Shown here: piece by piece, positions 1 through 6,841 of the stretch | How positions within the stretch are numbered: the first letter of the stretch is position 1 | Layout: the number at the start of each line of letters is the position of its first letter | Virus record (IMG/VR): IMGVR_UViG_2778261214_000002 | Source of the DNA: a virus | Lineage: Duplodnaviria; Heunggongvirae; Uroviricota; Caudoviricetes | Length of the DNA stretch: 6,874 nucleotides | Direction: 5' to 3' (one strand) | The notes under the pieces: generated by a model | Told to the model about the DNA's origin: nothing | Database searches by the model: none | The model's input: the letters and a program-made list of their open reading frames with translations, nothing else | Made by a program: the position numbers and the translations under genes

Positions 1-651
1 ATGGCGATCGCCGCTGCTGCGCGTGATGGCGAACGATGGCAACGGCTGGCCCTGTGCGTTCACGCCACCACCGGGCATGATGAATAACAGATTACCGCTT
101 TTTACCGTAGTGATTGCGCCCAGCATTTCCGCCATGCGCGTAAGGAAGGACATGTCACTTTCTTCGGTCTGGTCGGCGTGGTCGATTTCGATATCCATCA
201 GCATTTCGCTGATTTGCGGTTTCAGACCGTACCGATGAGCGATGGCGGATACCACACGCTCAACGGTCACATCATGCCAGGACACCTCACGTTTAACGTT
301 AAATTCATCCCGGAAATCTGCGCTTCTGGCTGAAACAGTCAGCCTGTCCGGCGGTCCTTCGTGTGCGATTTCATCAACAATGTAAGACCCTTTTTCTGTC
401 AGCGGTTCGCCTTTCCAGCCAATGAGAACCGTCAGGCGCGCGCCCCGTGGCGGTAGCTGCAACTGACCATCCGCATCATCCAGCGTGATGGTGAGCTGGT
501 CTGCCTCAAATCCCCGGTTGTCGGTCAGCGACAGGCTCATCAGGCGCTCTGCCACGCCGGACAGCGTTTTACCCTCCGCGAGAATATCAAAATCCGGCAT
601 TTTTACGGGGTCTGTGCCCTGGCTGAGCAATTGCATGGTGGTGTCGGTCAT
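1..651 (-). CDS. P2 gpD-like tail protein (late control gene D family), N-terminal 217 codons; 3' end runs off the window
   Basis: Hand translation of the reverse strand from ATG (complement of 649-651) to position 1 is open with no stop: MTDTTMQLLSQGTDPVKMPDFDILAEGKTLSGVAERLMSLSLTDNRGFEADQLTITLDDADGQLQLPPRGARLTVLIGWKG...SADFRDEF...SWHDVTVERVVSAI...ESDMSFLTRMAEML...ITRSSGDRH. Motifs (TDNRGFEADQL, IGWKG, SADFR, SWHD, FLTR, ITRSxGDRH) match my recollection of P2 gpD. SD-like GGGAGGG lies 5-11 nt upstream of the ATG on the - strand (complement of 657-663). Absent from the supplied ORF track because it has no in-window stop. Start could alternatively be the internal ATG at 600. Confidence 0.8.
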   Translation of the reverse strand, partial: MTDTTMQLLSQGTDPVKMPDFDILAEGKTLSGVAERLMSLSLTDNRGFEADQLTITLDDADGQLQLPPRGARLTVLIGWKGEPLTEKGSYIVDEIAHEGPPDRLTVSARSADFRDEFNVKREVSWHDVTVERVVSAIAHRYGLKPQISEMLMDIEIDHADQTEESDMSFLTRMAEMLGAITTVKSGNLLFIMPGGGVNAQGQPLPSFAITRSSGDRH

Positions 652-808: not shown

Positions 809-1993
809 ATGAGTGAAACTCGTTTTCATGGTGCCCGTGTTACGGAAAATACCGACCTGGTAACAGCGATTAACGATGTTGATTCCAGCGTTATCGGTAT
901 CGTGGCAACGGCGGATGATGCGGACGCGGAGCTGTTCCCGCTGAACAAGCCCACACTGCTGACCCGCGTCAATGACGTGCTGGGAAAATGCGGAACAACG
1001 GGGACGCTTTATCGTGCGCTTAAGGCCATCGCAGACCAGGTGAGCACAAAGGTGATCGTCGTTCGCGTGGCTGAACACAAAGAAGAAGACGGAAAGACGC
1101 AGGATCAACTGGTTATCGGTGGTTCTGAGGATGACGGCAGCTATACGGGGATGTATGCGCTGCTTGTTGCAGAGCAGGATGAAAGCATCGGATACCGTCC
1201 GCGTATTCTGGCCGCGCCGGAGCTGGACACGGAGGCGGTAACAAAATCCCTGTGCGTGATTGCGGGTAAACTGCGCGCGTTTGTGTATGCCACATGTCAT
1301 GGTTGTAACACGATGGCTGAGGAGATTACCTACCGCCAGAAATTCAACGAACGTGAGGTGATGCTCTTATGGCCTGACTTCATCGCCTACAACCCGAAAA
1401 GTGGCAAAAACGAAACGTTCCCCGCGCCTGCTTATGCGTGCGGCCTTCGTGCGTACATTGACCATGAGCAGGGCTGGCACAAATCGCTGTCCAACGTTCC
1501 GGTTAAAAATGTGCTGGGAATGTCCAGGCATGTGTTCTGGTCGTTGCAGGCCGAAGACAGTGATGCCAACAGCCTCAATAACAAAGAAATCACGACCATT
1601 ATTCGTCGCAACGGGTTCCGCTTCTGGGGCAACCGCACACCGGAAACGAACGCCTACATCTTTGAGGTGTATACCCGAACCGCACAGGTGCTGGCTGATT
1701 CAATTGCGGAAGCGCAGTTTGAAACCATCGACAGTCCACTGACGCCTGCGAACGTGAAGGATGTTATCAGTGCCATCAGGGCAAAACTGGATTCACTGGT
1801 TACTGCCGGGAAACTGATTGGCGCGGAGTGCTGGTATGACGTGGTGGATAACGGCACCACGGATTTACGTCAGGGGCGTGTGCGTATTCGCTACAAATAT
1901 ACGCCCGTTCCCCCGCTGGAAGACATGGAGCTTTACCAGACGTTTACTGATGAATTCTTTGGTCCCGCATTTGCGGTGCTGGGAGGTGCCTGA
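809..1993 (+). CDS. Contractile tail sheath protein (P2 gpFI-like)
   Basis: 394-aa ORF. N-terminus and internal motifs (FPLNKP, LRAF, YRQ, WPDF, GWHKSLSNV, IRRNGFRFWGNRT, NYTRTAQV, YTPVPPLE) match recalled P2 FI sheath. SD-like AAGGGG 8-9 nt upstream of ATG 809. Stop TGA 1991-1993 overlaps the next start (TGATG). Confidence 0.95.
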   Translation: MSETRFHGARVTENTDLVTAINDVDSSVIGIVATADDADAELFPLNKPTLLTRVNDVLGKCGTTGTLYRALKAIADQVSTKVIVVRVAEHKEEDGKTQDQLVIGGSEDDGSYTGMYALLVAEQDESIGYRPRILAAPELDTEAVTKSLCVIAGKLRAFVYATCHGCNTMAEEITYRQKFNEREVMLLWPDFIAYNPKSGKNETFPAPAYACGLRAYIDHEQGWHKSLSNVPVKNVLGMSRHVFWSLQAEDSDANSLNNKEITTIIRRNGFRFWGNRTPETNAYIFEVYTRTAQVLADSIAEAQFETIDSPLTPANVKDVISAIRAKLDSLVTAGKLIGAECWYDVVDNGTTDLRQGRVRIRYKYTPVPPLEDMELYQTFTDEFFGPAFAVLGGA

Positions 1994-2505
1994 TGGCTGT
2001 ACCAAAACATCTTCGCTTTTTTACGTTGTTTGTGGATGGTGAAAACGAAGTGGGTAAAGTGACATCCGTCACGCCGCCCAAACTGACGCGCAAAACCGAC
2101 AGTTATCGTGGTGGTGGCATGATGGGGGCGGTAAGTATTGATCTCGGTCTGGACGACTCCGCGCTTGATGCGAGCTTTGTCATGGGTGGAGCTGTTCGTG
2201 CACTGTTCCTTAAGTATGGCGGCACGATTGACGGCACGCTGCTGCGTTTTGCGGGTGAATATTACACCGATGCAGAAAGCGATCTGTATGAAATCGAGAT
2301 GCGCGGGCGTGTGACGGAAATTGATATGGGGGAGGCCAAACAGGGCGAAGCCACATCACACACATACGCTGTCAAAAACACCTACTACAAGCTGAGTGTT
2401 AACGATCGCCCGCTGTGGGAAATCGACCTGTTGAACCACATCTACCGGAAGGACGGCAAGGACATTGTGCCTGACCGCATTCGCTCCGCGCTTGGGCTTG
2501 GCTGA
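1993..2505 (+). CDS. Tail tube protein (P2 gpFII-like)
   Basis: 170-aa ORF directly after and 1 nt overlapping the sheath gene (translational coupling). GGGAGG SD at 1981-1986. Sheath-then-tube order and size are typical of P2-like myoviruses. Confidence 0.93.
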   Translation: MAVPKHLRFFTLFVDGENEVGKVTSVTPPKLTRKTDSYRGGGMMGAVSIDLGLDDSALDASFVMGGAVRALFLKYGGTIDGTLLRFAGEYYTDAESDLYEIEMRGRVTEIDMGEAKQGEATSHTYAVKNTYYKLSVNDRPLWEIDLLNHIYRKDGKDIVPDRIRSALGLG

Positions 2506-2560
2506 TAAGTAATATGCAGGCGGCGCAGTGCGTCGCCTCTGACTGAAAAGGAGACAACTG

Positions 2561-2935
2561 ATGAAAGACATCGATACTGAAACCCGGAATAACACCGTAG
2601 CGGATGATGTGACGGCAGGTGAGGATATGGCTGTCGAACGTGGTGTAAAACTTTCCCGGCCAATTGAGCGTGGTGCCGAAAAAATCACATATGTGGAAAT
2701 CACCGGGGCTATTGAGCAGGCGGGATCCCTGCGTGGTCTGTCGCTGTCTGATGTGCTGAATCTGAAAGCGGATACCATGTTCACGCTGTTGCCTCGCGTG
2801 ACTTCGCCACGACTGGATGAAGTGATGATTAAAAAAATGTCGTCACGCGATTTTATTCAGTTGTGCGCTGTGGCTGTAAATTTTATGAGCGAGCCAGACT
2901 CTGGCGCGAAGAGCGTGCAGGAGACGGCAGCGTAA
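2561..2935 (+). CDS. Tail assembly chaperone (P2 gpE-like)
   Basis: 124-aa ORF with strong SD AAAAGGAGA (2546-2554) before ATG 2561. Position between tube and tape measure genes, acidic small protein, and an overlapping -1 frame extension are the hallmarks of the gpE/gpE+E' pair (analogous to lambda G/GT). Confidence 0.85.
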   Translation: MKDIDTETRNNTVADDVTAGEDMAVERGVKLSRPIERGAEKITYVEITGAIEQAGSLRGLSLSDVLNLKADTMFTLLPRVTSPRLDEVMIKKMSSRDFIQLCAVAVNFMSEPDSGAKSVQETAA

Positions 2936-3099
2936 TCACCCTGGTGTGCTTTGAGCACATCGAAGATCTGGTGGCGGATATTGCCGCCATTTTTAACTGG
3001 TCGCCCGCCGAAATCTTCATGATGACGCCCGGCGAAGTGGTTAGCTGGCGTGAGCGGGCGGCACTTCGCAGCGGGAATGCAGATAATGAAGACTCTTGA
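2561..3099 (+). CDS. gpE+E' fusion produced by predicted programmed -1 ribosomal frameshift (shift somewhere in 2833-2935, E' frame continues to TGA 3097-3099)
   Basis: The -1 frame relative to E is open from 2833 (after TAA 2830-2832) to 3099 and has no SD-preceded start of its own (first start-like codon is GTG 2863 with no SD). Candidate slip sites: A AAT TTT at 2878-2884 (X XXY YYZ in E frame) and the A7 run 2831-2837. Fusion would be about 179 aa. Confidence 0.55.
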
Positions 3100-3340
3100 C
3101 ATCCGGGTCGCTTTCAGCGCCGTTGACAGGCTGACCCGGCCTGCCGAAAACGCCCGCCGCCTGATGGGGCAGTTTGGTGACTCCATCCAGCGAACGCAGG
3201 GGGCGATCAAAAATCTCGAGCGTCAGGCGCGTTCATTTGAGCGCGCCCGGGACGCTGTCAGTAAAGCGGATGCGGGTATCGTGAAAGCACGACGCCAGCT
3301 TAACGCCCTTAATCCGTTAGCGCGTAACGCGAGCGCGTGA
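3086..3340 (+). CDS. Tail tape measure protein, N-terminal fragment (frame-shifted relative to the main body)
   Basis: Frame-2 ORF MKTLDIRVAFSAVDRLTRPAENARRLMGQFGDSIQRTQGAIKNLERQ... (85 aa from ATG 3086; alternative starts ATG 3077, GTG 3050), stop TGA 3338-3340. Coiled-coil-like N-terminus typical of tape measure proteins. Overlaps the E' stop. Confidence 0.6.
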   Translation: MKTLDIRVAFSAVDRLTRPAENARRLMGQFGDSIQRTQGAIKNLERQARSFERARDAVSKADAGIVKARRQLNALNPLARNASA

Positions 3341-3440: not shown

Positions 3441-5657
3441 TTGCAGCCTGCGATCGGGTTCGGGAAAGAGATGTCCCGCGTTCAGGCACTGACGCGAATC
3501 GACAAAAACAGCCCGCAGTTTAAGGCGCTGCGTGAGCAGGCGTTAAAACTGGGCTCTGAAACGCAGTTCACCGCAGGCGATGCCGCCAGTGGGCAGGCAT
3601 TTCTTGCAATGGCTGGCTTCACACCGCAGGCCATTCAGGCTGCGCTCCCTGGCGTACTGAGCATGGCAACGGCTGGCGGTATGGACCTCGGTGAGACGGC
3701 GGATATTGGCTCAAATATCCTGACGCAGTTCGGTCTTTCTGCTGACCAGATGGACCGGGTCGGCGACACACTCACCGCAGCGTTTACCCGTACCAACACT
3801 GACCTTCGCGCACTGGGTGAAACCATGAAATATGCAGGTCCGGTGGCGGGTAAGCTGGGAATATCGCTGGAGCAGGCCGCAGCGATGGCGGGCGTGCTGG
3901 CGAATATGGGTATCAGAGGGAGTGATGCCGGGACGGCAATGCGTGCCAGCCTGGCTCGTCTGGCATCACCGCCAAAGGCGGCAGCAGAGGCGCTGAAAGA
4001 GCTTGGCGTGTCTGTCTCGGATGCCGGGGGCAAAATGCGTCCGATGGAGGATGTGCTGGCTGACCTTTATAAAGCTACCCGCAAATACGGGGAAGTTGAC
4101 CGGGTATCGTTCTTTAAGGACATTGCCGGAGAAGAGGCTTTCACATCATTTATGGCCCTCGTTGATGCGGCAGGTGACGGCTCCTTACCCAAACTGAGAA
4201 AAGAACTTGAAGGTGCGCGCGGTGAGGCTGAACGCACGGCAAAGGTTATGGCCAACAACCTTGACGGCGATCTGAAATCACTCAGCAGTGCATGGGAAGG
4301 GTTGCGCATCCGCATTGCAGATCTGATTGACGGTCCGCTGCGTTCTGTCACGCAGTGGCTCACGCGTGTGGTATCAAAGGTGACGGCGCTGGCGCAGGCC
4401 CATCCCGCACTGACGCGCCAGCTACTGATTGCAGGCGGTGCACTGCTGGCAATGACTGCAACGGTTGGCTCGTTGTCGCTGGCTATTGGTGTGCTTGCTG
4501 GCCCGCTGGCAAAACTGCGTCTTGGTTTTTCCCTCCTGACCGGATCAATGAATGCTGTCAGGGTTCTGCCAGCACTATGGGGAATGGTGACGGGTTCCGT
4601 TTCTTTACTGGGAGGCGCTATCGGGGCGTTGTTCAGTCCGGTTGGTCTTATCGTGGCTGCGCTTGCCGGAGCTGCCGTTCTTATCTGGAAATACTGGGAT
4701 CCCATCAGGGCATTTTTTGCCGGGGTGTTCAGCGGGATTATGGAAAGGCTGACCCCGTTGCGCGAAACCTTTGAACGGTTTGGTCCTGTTTTTGACGCAA
4801 TCGGGAGTGGGATCAGCCAGGTGTTTAACTGGTTTAAATCGCTGCTGTCACCGATGGAGTCCAGCAAGGAAACTCTGGATAAATGTACCAGTGCTGGCGA
4901 GATATTCGGTAACGTTCTTGGCGGTGCGTTACAACTTGTTCTGACACCTGCAAAAATGTTGCTGGATACGCTGGCGTGGATACTTGAAAAGCTTGGTGTG
5001 CTTCCGGATGAAGCGGAAAGGGCGCGCAAGAAAATCGAAGACGCACAGCGTGCGGCCATTCTTCAGGACAAGGTTGCCTTGCTTCAGGGGGACCTGGCGA
5101 AAATCAATCCGCCGAAGCCTGTGGAAAATGGCAATGGCACCGGAGGTGATAACCCCAAAGACAATAAACCGCTCACAGACAGCAATACCGGTACGCTGCG
5201 CAGACTCAGCAAAATTGCTGATAACACAGGTAAGCTGGTTGAGGAGACGAAAAAACGCATTGGCCCCGGCGATATTGTCTTTAAAAACCTGCCCCGAGCA
5301 CTTGCTGTTCGTGGGGAGTGGCAGGAGCGGAAGATTGCGCAGGTCAGTAAGCCTGCCCCCGCAATTAATATCACACCCGTGGTCCCGGCTCCGCTGCCTC
5401 CGGCGCTGGTCCCTGTTGTTGCGGCCAGCTCCCGCCCGGTGGCGGAGGCTATACGATCTCCAGTGGCATCAGTTCCTGTAACTTCCCGTAACCGGGAGCC
5501 TGTTGCCTCCGGATTTGGTGGTGAAATTCATGTTCATCTGCATAACGTTGTTACGCAGAATCCCCGCGAACTGGCGAAACTGGTCGGTGAAATGGTCAGG
5601 GCAGAAATGGAACGGCGCGCCCGTGCCGGGCGTGGCAGTTTTTACGATAAAGATTGA
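3441..5657 (+). CDS. Tail tape measure protein, main body (P2 gpT-like); frame is open from 3321
   Basis: Frame-0 reading is open from 3321 (after TAG 3318-3320) to TGA 5655-5657. First in-frame start-like codons are TTG 3441 and ATG 3471. Ala/Gly-rich alpha-helical protein with a central hydrophobic stretch (LLIAGGALLAMTATVGSLSLAIGVLAGPLA...) and a Pro/Val-rich C-terminus, located between gpE and gpU: characteristic tape measure. Confidence 0.9.
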   Translation: MQPAIGFGKEMSRVQALTRIDKNSPQFKALREQALKLGSETQFTAGDAASGQAFLAMAGFTPQAIQAALPGVLSMATAGGMDLGETADIGSNILTQFGLSADQMDRVGDTLTAAFTRTNTDLRALGETMKYAGPVAGKLGISLEQAAAMAGVLANMGIRGSDAGTAMRASLARLASPPKAAAEALKELGVSVSDAGGKMRPMEDVLADLYKATRKYGEVDRVSFFKDIAGEEAFTSFMALVDAAGDGSLPKLRKELEGARGEAERTAKVMANNLDGDLKSLSSAWEGLRIRIADLIDGPLRSVTQWLTRVVSKVTALAQAHPALTRQLLIAGGALLAMTATVGSLSLAIGVLAGPLAKLRLGFSLLTGSMNAVRVLPALWGMVTGSVSLLGGAIGALFSPVGLIVAALAGAAVLIWKYWDPIRAFFAGVFSGIMERLTPLRETFERFGPVFDAIGSGISQVFNWFKSLLSPMESSKETLDKCTSAGEIFGNVLGGALQLVLTPAKMLLDTLAWILEKLGVLPDEAERARKKIEDAQRAAILQDKVALLQGDLAKINPPKPVENGNGTGGDNPKDNKPLTDSNTGTLRRLSKIADNTGKLVEETKKRIGPGDIVFKNLPRALAVRGEWQERKIAQVSKPAPAINITPVVPAPLPPALVPVVAASSRPVAEAIRSPVASVPVTSRNREPVASGFGGEIHVHLHNVVTQNPRELAKLVGEMVRAEMERRARAGRGSFYDKD

Positions 5658-5663
5658 GGAGTC

Positions 5664-6158
5664 ATGGCCATGATGATGATCTACGGCATGTTTGTTTTTG
5701 AGCTGCGCACGCTGCCGCATCAGCAGTTACAGCAAAACAAAAGCTGGCGGCATGTGAAAAATGAACGCGTTAACCGTTCAGCAAGCTGGCAGTATATCGG
5801 TGCAGGTGATGATCGCATCGTTCTTTCTGGTGTGCTTTATCCTGAAATTACAGGTGGCGAAGTGTCGCTGTCGCTGCTGACCACGCAGGCGTATACAGGA
5901 CGACCCTGGCCTTTGATTGATGGCGTCGGGCAGATTTACGGCATGTATGTGCTGACTGAAACGAATACGACCCGTTCCGAGTTTGATCGCTACGGTAAGG
6001 CGAAAAAGATAGAATTTTCACTGACTCTTGAACGCTGTGATGAGGATTTGCGGGAGCGCCTGCAATCCTCATCGTTCAGTGATATGCTGTCCGGCTTCAA
6101 AGATAAGGTCACATCATCCCTTAACAGCGCGGCCAGCTCCGTTAAAGGGCTGTTTTGA
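5664..6158 (+). CDS. Tail protein (P2 gpU-like)
   Basis: 164-aa ORF. N-terminus MMMIYGMFVFELRTLP... resembles recalled P2 gpU (MMMVLGLFVF...). GAGGAG SD at 5656-5661 overlaps the tape measure stop; true start may be ATG 5670 (8-nt spacer) rather than 5664. Confidence 0.88.
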   Translation: MAMMMIYGMFVFELRTLPHQQLQQNKSWRHVKNERVNRSASWQYIGAGDDRIVLSGVLYPEITGGEVSLSLLTTQAYTGRPWPLIDGVGQIYGMYVLTETNTTRSEFDRYGKAKKIEFSLTLERCDEDLRERLQSSSFSDMLSGFKDKVTSSLNSAASSVKGLF

Positions 6159-6165
6159 TTAACGC

Positions 6166-6202
6166 AAAACCGCTAATGGTCAGATTAGCGGTTTTTTATT
6201 TT
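6166..6202. terminator. Intrinsic (rho-independent) terminator between convergent gpU and invertase genes
   Basis: Perfect 12-bp inverted repeat AAAACCGCTAAT (6166-6177) / ATTAGCGGTTTT (6184-6195) with 6-nt loop, followed by TTATTTT on the + strand. On the - strand the stem is followed by a weaker U tract. Sits 8 nt after the gpU stop and directly abuts the invertase stop (6196-6198). Confidence 0.75.
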
Positions 6203-6786
6203 CCCTGAGTCTGCCCGGTTGTTTCTTCAGCCTGTATATCGCCTACAGGGTGATAACGATAAATCGTCGATATACCGATGTCGTAAATGATCGCCAGTTG
6301 TTTCCTGTCATGGCCGTTTTTAATCAGCCTTTCTATTTGCTCATGTTGTTCTTTTGTCAACTTCGGGCGACGTCCGCCAATGCGTCCCTGTGCTCGTGCT
6401 GCTGCCAGCCCGGCCAGTGTACGCTCTACAATTAATTCACGTTCCATTTCTGCTAAAGCTCCCATGACGTGAAAAAAGAAACGCCCCATGGGTGTTGATG
6501 TGTCAATGCTGTCCGTCAGGCTACGGAAATTAACACCTTTTTCCCGCAATTCCTCAATAAGCGTGATCAGGTGTTTCATACTCCTGCCCAGCCTGTCCAG
6601 CTTCCAGACAACCAGCGTATCTCCTTCTGATAGCGTTCTGAGCAGTTTTTTCAATCCCGGTCTGGCTGATTTCGTTCCGCTGATTTTATCTTCAAAAATC
6701 AGTTCACATCCTGCGCACTCCAGCGCGTTACGCTGCAATTCCGTGTTCTGGTCATTTGTTGATACGCGAACATAACCAATAAGCAT
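6196..6786 (-). CDS. Site-specific DNA invertase, serine recombinase (Hin/Gin/Cin/Pin family)
   Basis: Reverse-strand ORF MLIGYVRVSTNDQNT...LVVWKLDRLGRSMKHL...GVNFRSLTDSIDTSTPMGRFFFHVMGALAEMERELIVERT...GRIGGRRPKLT... is near-identical in motif content to recalled Gin/Pin/Cin/Hin invertases (catalytic Ser in YVRVSTNDQ, C-terminal HTH). Start chosen at ATG 6786 (SD AGGGGG 6 nt upstream on the - strand); the ORF track extends to ATG 6792. Confidence 0.95.
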   Translation of the reverse strand: MLIGYVRVSTNDQNTELQRNALECAGCELIFEDKISGTKSARPGLKKLLRTLSEGDTLVVWKLDRLGRSMKHLITLIEELREKGVNFRSLTDSIDTSTPMGRFFFHVMGALAEMERELIVERTLAGLAAARAQGRIGGRRPKLTKEQHEQIERLIKNGHDRKQLAIIYDIGISTIYRYHPVGDIQAEETTGQTQGK

Positions 6787-6841
6787 GAGCATCCCCCTGA
6801 ATAAAAACCGGAGATGATGCCAGTTACCCGTTATCTCTGCA

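What the first reader, a model, noticed from the sequence alone, without database searches (positions are those of the whole stretch)
2830..3099. gpE / E' programmed -1 frameshift with non-P2 slip-site candidates
The -1 frame relative to gpE is open from 2833 to 3099 (about 88 codons) and has no translation start of its own, the classic signature of the chaperone frameshift conserved in tailed phages. I recall the P2 slip site as a T6G heptamer; that motif is absent here. Two alternatives are present in the E frame: A AAT TTT at 2878-2884 (canonical X XXY YYZ, allows tRNA-Asn/tRNA-Phe tandem slippage) and an A7 run at 2831-2837 (Lys codons AAA AAA, right where the -1 frame opens). Which one is used would change the E/E' junction.
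Basis: partly seen in the sequence, partly recalled or inferred. Interest (0 to 1): 0.5.

Follow-up and report, generated by a model that had tools for sequence, protein, structure and literature searches.

The report
Phage tail chaperone frameshift, variant slip site
This is the well-known programmed -1 frameshift that P2-like phages use to make a longer form of a tail-assembly chaperone; in this E. coli prophage lineage the usual TTTTTTG slip site has been replaced by AAATTTT one codon upstream, so it is an ordinary feature with a small twist.

Summary
The window carries a P2-like (P88/phiSM-type, Xuanwuvirus) tail module: sheath, tube, gpE (2561-2935), tape measure, gpU. The -1 frame is open from 2833 to 3099 and encodes the Pfam "Phage P2 GpE" (E') domain.

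Comparison of about 470 related loci settles the slip-site question.
- P2's annotated site (GGT TTT TTG, V-G-F-L) aligns codon for codon with window GTA AAT TTT ATG (V-N-F-M). The Phe codon 2882-2884 is the conserved shift point.
- The only in-phase X XXY YYZ heptamer in the overlap is A AAT TTT (2878-2884).
- The predicted product is 179 aa with junction ...AVAVNF|YERARLW.
- Amino-acid conservation switches from the 0 frame to the -1 frame exactly at this codon.

The A7 run is rejected. It is out of phase (T AAA AAA). A -1 stop lies between it and the Phe codon in five of eight lineages and in three window-type loci. A shift there would also remove invariant gpE residues.

The plaque-forming phage phiSM carries the identical slip region. 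T6G loss is derived and has a parallel in a Klebsiella lineage (C CCT TTC).

No stimulatory RNA structure was detected. No fusion protein has been shown. This copy's tape-measure gene carries a 236-bp frameshifting deletion.

The parts
1993..2505 (+). Tail tube gene (P2 FII homologue), the upstream neighbour of the chaperone gene
   Evidence: PF04985 Phage_tube, E=2e-45.
2550..2553 (+). Shine-Dalgarno GGAG for gpE, 7 nt before the ATG at 2561
   Evidence: Read directly from the sequence.
2561..2935 (+). gpE-like tail assembly chaperone, 0-frame product of 124 aa
   Evidence: phrog_103 E=3e-36. PF10109 Phage_TAC_7 is below threshold (18 bits against 25). Aligns with P2 gpE. RefSeq relatives are annotated 'tail protein'.
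2878..2884 (+). Proposed slip site A_AAT_TTT (Asn107-Phe108). It ends on the Phe codon that is homologous to the Phe codon of P2's T_TTT_TTG
   Evidence: Only in-phase X XXY YYZ heptamer. Positional homology with the annotated P2 site. Invariant as GTA AAT TTT ATG in 85 related loci and in 113 of 113 IMG/VR pattern matches. A_AAU_UUU is frameshift-prone in E. coli reporters (PMC4066793 Table S3).
2884..3099 (+). E' coding part in the -1 frame (71 codons plus TGA), read after the shift. Predicted fusion is 108 + 71 = 179 aa with junction ...AVAVNF|YERARLWREER...
   Evidence: Over the 15 codons after the Phe codon, mean -1 frame identity between lineages is 0.63 against 0.43 for the 0 frame. Upstream this is reversed: 0.34 against 0.53.
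2971..3078 (+). Pfam PF06528 'Phage P2 GpE' domain (fusion residues 138-173)
   Evidence: 45 bits, E=7e-12.
2831..2837 (+). A7 run (Lys-Lys codons). This is the rejected alternative slip site
   Evidence: Out of phase (T_AAA_AAA). P88-type relatives and window-type loci L044, L047 and L049 have a -1 frame TGA between it and 2878. Salmonella and Klebsiella relatives have no A run.
2833..2883 (+). Open but probably untranslated part of the -1 frame upstream of the slip site
   Evidence: Poorly conserved in the -1 frame, and interrupted by stops in five of eight lineages.
3086..3340 (+). Start of the tape-measure gene, overlapping the end of E' as in P2. In this copy it is truncated by a 236-bp deletion at 3319|3320; the rest continues out of frame at 3441-5657
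   Evidence: blastn against L001 and L003. PF10145 on 3441-5657.

Best explanation
A minority of ribosomes translating gpE shift back one base on A_AAU_UUU (2878-2884), with tRNA-Asn in the P site and tRNA-Phe in the A site. They re-pair to AAA and UUU, read UAU (Tyr) next, and continue in the -1 frame to the TGA at 3097-3099.

The result is a 179-aa gpE+E' fusion (...AVAVNF-YERARLW...) alongside the 124-aa gpE. By analogy with P2 E/E+E' and lambda G/GT, both products chaperone the tape measure and tail tube during tail assembly.

The heptamer is a derived replacement for the ancestral P2-type T_TTT_TTG. The sister clade has both sites overlapping (A AAT TTT TTG). In this lineage TTG became ATG, leaving only the upstream heptamer.

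Shown here: the anatomy, the homology, the position of the frame switch and the exclusion of A7. Inferred: that the shift happens, its efficiency, and tandem rather than single-tRNA slippage.
For: - Synteny and families: tube, gpE, E' (PF06528), tape measure.
- The P2 record annotates the -1 shift at GGT TTT TTG. The predicted fusion aligns with P2 gpE+E' over 153 residues (E=8e-29), with VNF|Y opposite VGF|L.
- At this one position, 177 classifiable loci show only these variants: GGT TTT TTG, AAT TTT TTG, CCT TTT TTG, CCT TTC TTG and AAT TTT ATG. A further 80 P2-clade loci all have T6G.
- Conservation switches frame at the Phe codon.
- In one lineage (L117-L120) a -1 TAA sits immediately before the T run, pinning the shift to this codon.
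- Both lineages that lost T6G keep a canonical heptamer ending on the Phe codon: A AAT TTT here and C CCT TTC in Klebsiella phages.
- Reporter frequencies in E. coli, given as no stimulator / IS911 stimulators / IS3 pseudoknot: A_AAU_UUU 0.070 / 0.355 / 11.4% against U_UUU_UUG 0.118 / 0.247 / 0.765%.
- The plaque-forming, lysogenising phage phiSM (PMC6456863) has the identical slip region.
- The allele is in 599 of 5426 complete E. coli genomes.
Against: - No fusion protein, ribosome profiling or mutational data exist for this lineage.
- Without a stimulator, A_AAU_UUU gave only 0.07% in reporters, close to background.
- I found no stimulator. Folding 60 nt downstream gave z=-0.46; relatives gave +1.19, -1.36 and -0.01. 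There was no Rfam match and no Shine-Dalgarno-like motif 6-17 nt upstream.
- Invariance of the heptamer within the clade has little statistical weight, because the clade is only about 2% divergent.
- This particular prophage copy has a broken tape-measure gene, so the signal may no longer be under selection here.
Confidence: 0.72

Rival explanations
1. Same shift point and same product, but by single-tRNA slippage. tRNA-Phe on UUU (2882-2884) slides to 2881-2883 (U_UUU) while in the P site with the A site empty, and the preceding A_AAU plays no essential role. The conserved element across the family would then be U_UUY at the Phe codon rather than any particular heptamer.
For: U_UUY at the Phe codon is the only element shared by all T-type lineages: GGT TTT, AAT TTT, CCT TTT and CCT TTC. 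U_UUC and U_UUU are the second and third best tetramers in E. coli (PMC4066793).
Against: Both lineages that lost T6G have a full canonical heptamer upstream, whereas T6G-bearing lineages often do not (C GGT TTT, G CCT TTT, T AAT TTT). That suggests the second slippery codon matters. Tetramers alone were barely above background without a pseudoknot (Table S2).
Confidence: 0.18
2. E' is made as a separate small protein by independent or coupled initiation at GTG 2944, as RefSeq annotates it, or at GTG 2863. No frameshift is involved.
For: PGAP and phage records annotate a 51-aa 'GpE family phage tail protein' starting at the GTG equivalent to 2944. That GTG lies 9 nt after the gpE stop, so termination-reinitiation is conceivable. 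phrog_1756 members start about 7 codons before the slip site.
Against: - There is no Shine-Dalgarno sequence at a usable distance from either GTG.
- The -1 frame is conserved at protein level from the Phe codon onward, in the 20 codons before 2944.
- The start codons are not conserved. Klebsiella relatives read ...ITVAF... with no GTG/ATG/TTG at either position, and L117-L120 have a stop just before the T run.
- P2 and PsP3 records document or annotate the fusion.
Confidence: 0.06
3. The shift occurs at the A7 run (2831-2837), by ribosomal A_AAA slippage or by RNA polymerase stuttering, giving ...MIKK|NVVTRFYSVVRCGCKFYERARLW.
For: The -1 frame opens exactly at 2833. A runs are slippery. Database proteins with this junction exist (P0001, P0003, P0004).
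Against: - The run is out of phase (T_AAA_AAA). The A_AAA tetramer gives 0.125-0.256% in reporters.
- P88-type relatives, found in 820 E. coli genomes, have a -1 TGA between the A run and the Phe codon.
- Three window-type loci acquire the same stop through a synonymous CGC to CGT change.
- Salmonella, Klebsiella and P2 homologues have no A run.
- The product would replace the invariant gpE residues D97, F98, I99, L101, V106 and F108.
- The database fusions are A8 insertion alleles in Logan assemblies, not frameshift products.
Confidence: 0.02
4. The T to A change that destroyed T6G inactivated the frameshift. E' is a decaying remnant in a lineage of defective prophages.
For: The canonical P2 motif is gone. 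This copy's tape-measure gene is broken. A_AAU_UUU is weak without a stimulator.
Against: The -1 ORF is intact and identical or nearly identical in 85 loci, in 113 IMG/VR matches and in about 600 E. coli genomes. The functional phage phiSM carries it. The best-matching relatives examined (L001, L003) have an intact tape-measure gene.
Confidence: 0.03

Closest known systems
Bacteriophage P2 gpE / gpE+E' (-1 frameshift at T_TTT_TTG in the FETUD tail operon; Christie et al. 2002, cited in PMC3091744; GenBank NC_001895 annotation)
   Same: - Same gene position (FII, E, E', T).
- Homologous proteins in both frames (33% identity, E=8e-29).
- E' ends overlapping the start of the tape-measure gene.
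- The shift occurs at the homologous Phe codon.
- No downstream hairpin detected in either phage.
   Different: - The slip heptamer is A_AAU_UUU, ending on the Phe codon, rather than U_UUU_UUG, which starts one base before it.
- tRNA-Phe would therefore be in the A site rather than the P site.
- The junction residue is Tyr instead of Leu.
- gpE is 124 aa against 91, and the post-shift overlap is 17 codons against 8.
Phage P88 and P88-type E. coli prophages (Xuanwuvirus/Gemsvirus), the sister allele
   Same: About 88% nucleotide identity over the region, the same architecture, and the same A AAT TTT heptamer.
   Different: P88-type reads A AAT TTT TTG, so the P2-type T6G is still present and overlaps the upstream heptamer. 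It also has a -1 TGA eleven codons upstream of the Phe codon. Neither allele is annotated as a frameshift in RefSeq.
Klebsiella pneumoniae P2-like phages Kp4845-1 and relatives (59 IMG/VR loci)
   Same: An independent loss of T6G (TTC TTG), with a canonical heptamer, C_CCU_UUC, ending on the same Phe codon.
   Different: A different heptamer, one of the more efficient U-type motifs in E. coli reporters (23% with the IS3 pseudoknot). The -1 frame is open much further upstream. These records are unannotated.
Phage lambda gpG/gpGT (G_GGA_AAG) and Mannheimia phage 587AP1 gpE (annotated AGGGAAAG slippery sequence)
   Same: The same strategy: a tail assembly chaperone plus a -1 frameshift extension, encoded between the tube and tape-measure genes. 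The lambda product ratio is about 30:1 (PMC5009743).
   Different: A Lys-tRNA based A_AAG slip site. Lambda G/T are not detectably homologous to E/E'.

Membership tests
P2-type gpE/gpE+E' tail assembly chaperone with programmed -1 frameshift | The gene pair lies between the tail tube (FII) and tape-measure (T) genes | tested here: met
   Tube 1993-2505 (PF04985), gpE 2561-2935, E' to 3099, tape measure from 3086 (PF10145).
P2-type gpE/gpE+E' tail assembly chaperone with programmed -1 frameshift | The 0-frame product is homologous to gpE | tested here: met
   phrog_103 E=3e-36. BLASTP to P2 E+E' E=8e-29, covering the E part. Pfam PF10109 is only 18 bits against a 25-bit cutoff, and there is no NCBIfam hit.
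P2-type gpE/gpE+E' tail assembly chaperone with programmed -1 frameshift | The -1 frame encodes the E' (PF06528) domain and overlaps the 3' end of E | tested here: met
   PF06528 45 bits against 23. The open -1 frame overlaps gpE over 2833-2935.
P2-type gpE/gpE+E' tail assembly chaperone with programmed -1 frameshift | An in-phase slippery sequence lies within the overlap, at the conserved position | tested here: met
   A_AAT_TTT at 2878-2884, ending on the Phe codon homologous to P2's.
P2-type gpE/gpE+E' tail assembly chaperone with programmed -1 frameshift | The slip sequence is specifically TTTTTTG | tested here: not met
   TTTTTTG is absent from 2561-3099; the site reads TTT ATG. T6G is present in P2 (80 of 80 loci), PsP3, and Yersinia, Klebsiella, Enterobacter, Salmonella, Pseudomonas, Burkholderia and Ralstonia relatives.
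P2-type gpE/gpE+E' tail assembly chaperone with programmed -1 frameshift | Protein-level conservation of the -1 frame begins at the slip site | tested here: met
   Mean pairwise identity across 8 lineages: upstream 0.53 (0 frame) against 0.34 (-1 frame); downstream 0.43 against 0.63.
P2-type gpE/gpE+E' tail assembly chaperone with programmed -1 frameshift | A fusion protein is actually produced and is required for tail assembly | not testable with these tools
   Only indirect evidence: the plaque-forming phage phiSM has the identical sequence.
Stimulated -1 PRF signals (dnaX / IS911 / IS3 type) | A downstream hairpin or pseudoknot 5-9 nt after the heptamer, or an upstream Shine-Dalgarno-like element | tested here: not met
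   Fold z-scores of -0.46 and -0.98 for the window. The GCCAG-ACT-CTGGC hairpin at 2893-2905 is not in the predicted minimum-energy fold and is not conserved in P88-type. No Rfam hit. No GGAG/GAGG/AGGA 6-17 nt upstream.

The most novel reading that the evidence does not exclude
The slip site of the gpE family has moved one codon upstream through a dual-heptamer intermediate (A AAT TTT TTG or C CCT TTT TTG), at least twice independently: once in the E. coli/Citrobacter phiSM-type and once in the Klebsiella Kp4845-type. This implies that the truly conserved recoding element is tRNA-Phe slipping on U_UUY, and that the textbook 'TTTTTTG' is only one of several interchangeable contexts. The derived A_AAU_UUU and C_CCU_UUC sites allow cognate A-site re-pairing, so they could give a different E : E+E' ratio from P2.
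Probability: 0.35. Interest if true: 0.4.

Novelty: new member of a known kind. Interest (0 to 1): 0.28.

Why it matters
There are three practical and scientific consequences.

- Annotation. In about 1,400 complete E. coli genomes, and in the deposited phiSM/P88-type phage records, E' is annotated as a free-standing 51-aa gene and no ribosomal slippage is recorded. Searches for the P2 motif TTTTTTG miss the roughly 600 genomes with the window-type allele. The correct product is a 179-aa fusion with junction NF|Y.
- Evolution. The locus is a small, clean example of a recoding signal being replaced without moving the protein junction, by way of an intermediate that carries two overlapping heptamers.
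- Experiment. phiSM plates on E. coli K-12, so it offers an easy test of whether A_AAU_UUU works without a detectable stimulator.

It does not change what is known about tail assembly chaperones.

Tried and rejected
- **A7 run as slip site.** Rejected. It is out of phase, there are -1 stops downstream of it in relatives, the run is absent in other lineages, and a shift there would remove invariant gpE residues.
- **Database 'fusion' proteins as evidence for the junction.** They turned out to be indel alleles. P0001-type is an A8 insertion. P0005 and P0006 are T-run length variants or deletions. They are not evidence of recoding.
- **Downstream stimulatory structure.** The hairpin I noticed by eye (GCCAG-ACT-CTGGC, 2893-2905, 8 nt after the heptamer) is not in the minimum-energy fold and is not conserved. 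The region does not fold better than shuffles in the window, P88, Klebsiella or P2. There was no Rfam match.
- **Genome-contig scan.** The gpE alignment returned only 4 loci because the peptide patterns were too specific.
- **Viral-contig scans.** These return the 80 nearest relatives, so diversity had to be assembled from several queries plus 12 hand-picked phage records.
- **Within-clade invariance of the heptamer.** It holds in 113 of 113 matches, but I do not count it as evidence of selection because the clade is too shallow.
- **Christie et al. 2002 (P2 frameshift paper).** It is not held in the library. P2 facts come from the GenBank record and from PMC3091744.
- **Sharma et al. 2014 candidate clusters.** This gene is not among them.
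- **Literature search.** 'AAATTTT' with 'frameshift' and 'tail' found nothing relevant.

Full report
**What is in the window**

The 6.9-kb window is the tail module of a P2-like prophage.
- Sheath: 809-1993.
- Tube: 1993-2505 (PF04985).
- A 124-aa gpE-like gene: 2561-2935.
- Tape-measure gene: starts at ATG 3086.
- gpU: 5664-6158.
- A serine DNA invertase: 6196-6792, minus strand.

Its closest relatives are E. coli prophages at up to 99.5% identity. Next come the phages Xuanwuvirus P88_4B11, Citrobacter phage Shae_phiSM, and Escherichia phages 503458 and 520873, at 96.5-97.6% identity. A second group, including phage P88, lies at about 88%.

**Checking the observation**

- The -1 frame relative to gpE has a TAA at 2830-2832. 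It is then open for 88 codons to the TGA at 3097-3099.
- AAATTTT occurs once in the window, at 2878-2884, in phase as A_AAT_TTT. It is the only canonical X XXY YYZ heptamer in the gpE frame.
- TTTTTTG is absent from gpE/E'.
- The A7 run is at 2831-2837. With gpE codons ATT AAA AAA ATG, the in-phase 7-mer is T_AAA_AAA, so it is not a proper heptamer.
- The -1 ORF is a real coding region. It carries PF06528 'Phage P2 GpE' (45 bits, cutoff 23) and matches phrog_1756 at E=8e-38.
- The statement that it has no start of its own needs softening. GTG codons exist at 2863 and 2944, and RefSeq uses the latter to call a separate 51-aa 'GpE family phage tail protein'. No slippage is annotated in any relative I opened. 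Neither GTG has a usable Shine-Dalgarno sequence.

**Where the shift happens**

The P2 record annotates the -1 shift at GGT TTT TTG, in the context V-V-G-F-L. PMC3091744 confirms TTTTTTG, a 91-aa E and a 142-aa E+E', and reports no downstream hairpin.

The predicted window fusion is gpE residues 1-108 followed by the -1 frame from 2884. It aligns with P2 gpE+E' over 153 residues (33% identity, E=8e-29), with ...VNF|Y opposite ...VGF|L. So the Phe codon at 2882-2884 is the homologue of the Phe codon inside P2's slip site.

I assembled related loci from IMG/VR, GTDB genomes and GenBank phages and read this position in each:

| Lineage | Sequence at the site | Loci examined |
|---|---|---|
| P2 clade | GGT TTT TTG | L010 plus 80 of 80 IMG/VR loci |
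| P88-type | GTA AAT TTT TTG | 6 |
| Salmonella group | GTC CCT TTT TTG | 12 |
| Two groups including Edwardsiella | GTG CCT TTT TTG | 10 |
| E. coli group with a -1 TAA directly before the T run | GTT AAT TTT TTG | 4 |
| Klebsiella group | GTC CCT TTC TTG | 59 |
| Window type | GTA AAT TTT ATG | 85 |

A degenerate pattern scan found a further 113 of 113 matches with the window-type sequence.

Twelve hand-picked Peduoviridae were also read. PsP3, Yersinia, three Klebsiella phages, Enterobacter, SEN5, Pseudomonas, two Burkholderia phages and Ralstonia all have in-phase T6G. A Mannheimia phage is annotated with AGGGAAAG.

T6G is therefore ancestral. The window type lost it through TTG becoming ATG, and the Klebsiella type lost it through TTT becoming TTC. 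In both cases a canonical heptamer ending on the Phe codon remains: A_AAT_TTT and C_CCT_TTC. The T6G-bearing lineages nearest in sequence at this site (P88-type and a Salmonella group) carry both heptamers overlapping, which is a plausible intermediate state.

**Frame-switch test**

I compared eight lineage representatives, giving 28 pairs.
- In the 15 codons before the Phe codon, mean identity is 0.53 in the 0 frame and 0.34 in the -1 frame.
- In the 15 codons after it, mean identity is 0.43 in the 0 frame and 0.63 in the -1 frame.
- After the shift point the -1 frame keeps a recognisable pattern: a variable first few residues, then LW or AW, ER, and an invariant GDG.

Five of the eight lineages have a -1 stop within 11 codons upstream of the Phe codon. 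In one of these it is at codon -1. Translation of the -1 frame must therefore begin at or immediately after this codon.

**The A7 run**

- P88-type prophages carry a -1 TGA (ccg TGA ctt) between the A run and the Phe codon. Their 60-mer is present in 820 of 5426 complete E. coli genomes.
- Three window-type loci gain the same stop through a CGC to CGT change that is synonymous in gpE.
- Salmonella, Klebsiella and P2 homologues lack the run.
- A shift there would replace the invariant residues D97, F98, I99, L101, V106 and F108.
- The database proteins with the IKKNVV junction come from A8 insertion alleles in two Logan assemblies.

The A7 candidate is rejected. The long open -1 stretch from 2833 to 2883 is incidental.

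**Is A_AAU_UUU a credible signal?**

Sharma et al. 2014 (PMC4066793, Table S3) measured -1 frameshifting for all 64 heptamers in E. coli:

| Motif | No stimulator | IS911 stimulators | IS3 pseudoknot |
|---|---|---|---|
| A_AAU_UUU | 0.070% | 0.355% | 11.4% |
| U_UUU_UUG (P2's site) | 0.118% | 0.247% | 0.765% |
| C_CCU_UUC | 0.193% | 1.39% | 23.2% |

The paper singles out R_RRU_UUY as frameshift-prone. It also states the rule that the best bacterial motifs allow cognate A-site re-pairing. That is true of UUU re-pairing to UUU, but not of UUG re-pairing to UUU.

The motif is thus at least as competent as the proven P2 site once any stimulator is present. I could find no stimulator, however.
- Folds of the 60 nt downstream are no better than shuffles (z=-0.46; relatives +1.19, -1.36, -0.01).
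- There is no Rfam match.
- There is no Shine-Dalgarno-like motif upstream.
- The same absence of a hairpin is reported for P2.

**Functional context**

phiSM is a spontaneously released, plaque-forming, lysogenising phage of C. rodentium that is related to P88 (PMC6456863). Its GenBank record has exactly the window's sequence across the slip region. The window-type 60-mer (2861-2920) occurs in 599 of 5426 complete E. coli genomes, and 533 of the 600 matching records carry it at 99% identity or better. This argues that the allele supports tail assembly. It is indirect evidence.

**Mechanism and product**

The most likely mechanism is tandem -1 slippage of tRNA-Asn and tRNA-Phe on A_AAU_UUU. 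The less likely alternative is slippage of tRNA-Phe alone on U_UUU. Either gives the same 179-aa protein, ...DFIQLCAVAVNF-YERARLWREERAGDGSVITLVCFEH...NEDS.

By analogy with P2 and lambda, the short and long forms bind the tape measure. The E' extension is thought to recruit tube subunits (PMC5009743). That functional step is inferred, not tested.

**Comparison with known systems, and novelty**

This is a member of the P2 gpE/gpE+E' recoding family on every testable criterion except the identity of the heptamer. Slip-site diversity among tail-chaperone frameshifts is already known, for example lambda G_GGA_AAG and the Mannheimia annotation. I therefore rate it a new member of a known kind.

Two modest points are new. 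The site sits one codon upstream of the family's usual T6G, and it is un-annotated in RefSeq. I found no paper describing this allele, but the library is incomplete.

**State of this copy**

Relative to L001 and phiSM, the window lacks 236 bp between 3319 and 3320. That length is not a multiple of three, so the tape-measure gene is split into 3086-3340 and 3441-5657. This prophage copy is probably tail-defective, although its gpE/E' region is intact.

Noticed in passing
window 3319|3320 (tape-measure gene 3086-3340 and 3441-5657): A clean 236-bp deletion relative to E. coli A0 34/86 (L001 4921-5156) and phage phiSM. It frameshifts the tape-measure gene, so this prophage copy is probably unable to build tails. 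There is no obvious microhomology at the junction.
   Followed up: partly
window 2944-3099; L001 4545-4700; L002 2035-2190 and the other phage records: RefSeq/PGAP and the deposited phage genomes annotate E' as a separate 51-aa 'GpE family phage tail protein' starting at a GTG. No ribosomal slippage is annotated in any P88/phiSM-type record examined. About 1,400 complete E. coli genomes carry this module.
   Followed up: partly
L273 and L274 (Logan assemblies ERR13669365, ERR13868096), equivalent to window 2831-2837: The A run is A8 instead of A7, which fuses gpE residues 1-92 directly to the -1 frame (protein cluster P0001, 15 members). I did not determine whether these are homopolymer sequencing errors or real mutations.
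   Followed up: partly
L121-L180 (IMG/VR) and Klebsiella phages Kp4845-1 etc. (OK490394 and relatives): A Klebsiella pneumoniae P2-like lineage has also lost T6G (GTC CCT TTC TTG) and retains C_CCT_TTC. In most of these loci the -1 frame is open for about 65 codons upstream of the site.
   Followed up: partly
L012 (NZ_JBQPOM010000071.1, labelled Vagococcus sp. WN89Y): A contig labelled as a Gram-positive Vagococcus carries a P88-type enterobacterial prophage tail module, which suggests contamination or mislabelling. In this allele the A run is an in-phase A_AAA_AAA (ACG ATA AAA AAA ATG) and there is no -1 stop before the T6G, so two or three slippery sites are open.
   Followed up: no
window 2969-2989 (+), inside E': A terminator-like hairpin, TGGTGGCGG-ATA-TTGCCGCCA, followed by TTTTT. 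It overlies the conserved ADIAAIF motif of E'. The number of such sites in the region is no higher than in shuffles (4 against 3.1), so it may simply follow from the codons.
   Followed up: no
L003 1410-2594 (phiSM record OR565851) and PMC6456863: The phiSM GenBank record labels the sheath gene 'late control gene D protein'. The paper describes phiSM virions as having long non-contractile tails (Siphoviridae), although the genome encodes a P2-type sheath and tube module. The two do not fit together.
   Followed up: no
window 1-400 and 6196-6792; L001 840-1943: Gene order differs from P2. A gpD/VgrG-like gene and ogr lie upstream of the sheath gene on the opposite strand, and a serine invertase follows gpU directly, next to a partial tail-fibre gene. 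This suggests an invertible host-range segment.
   Followed up: no
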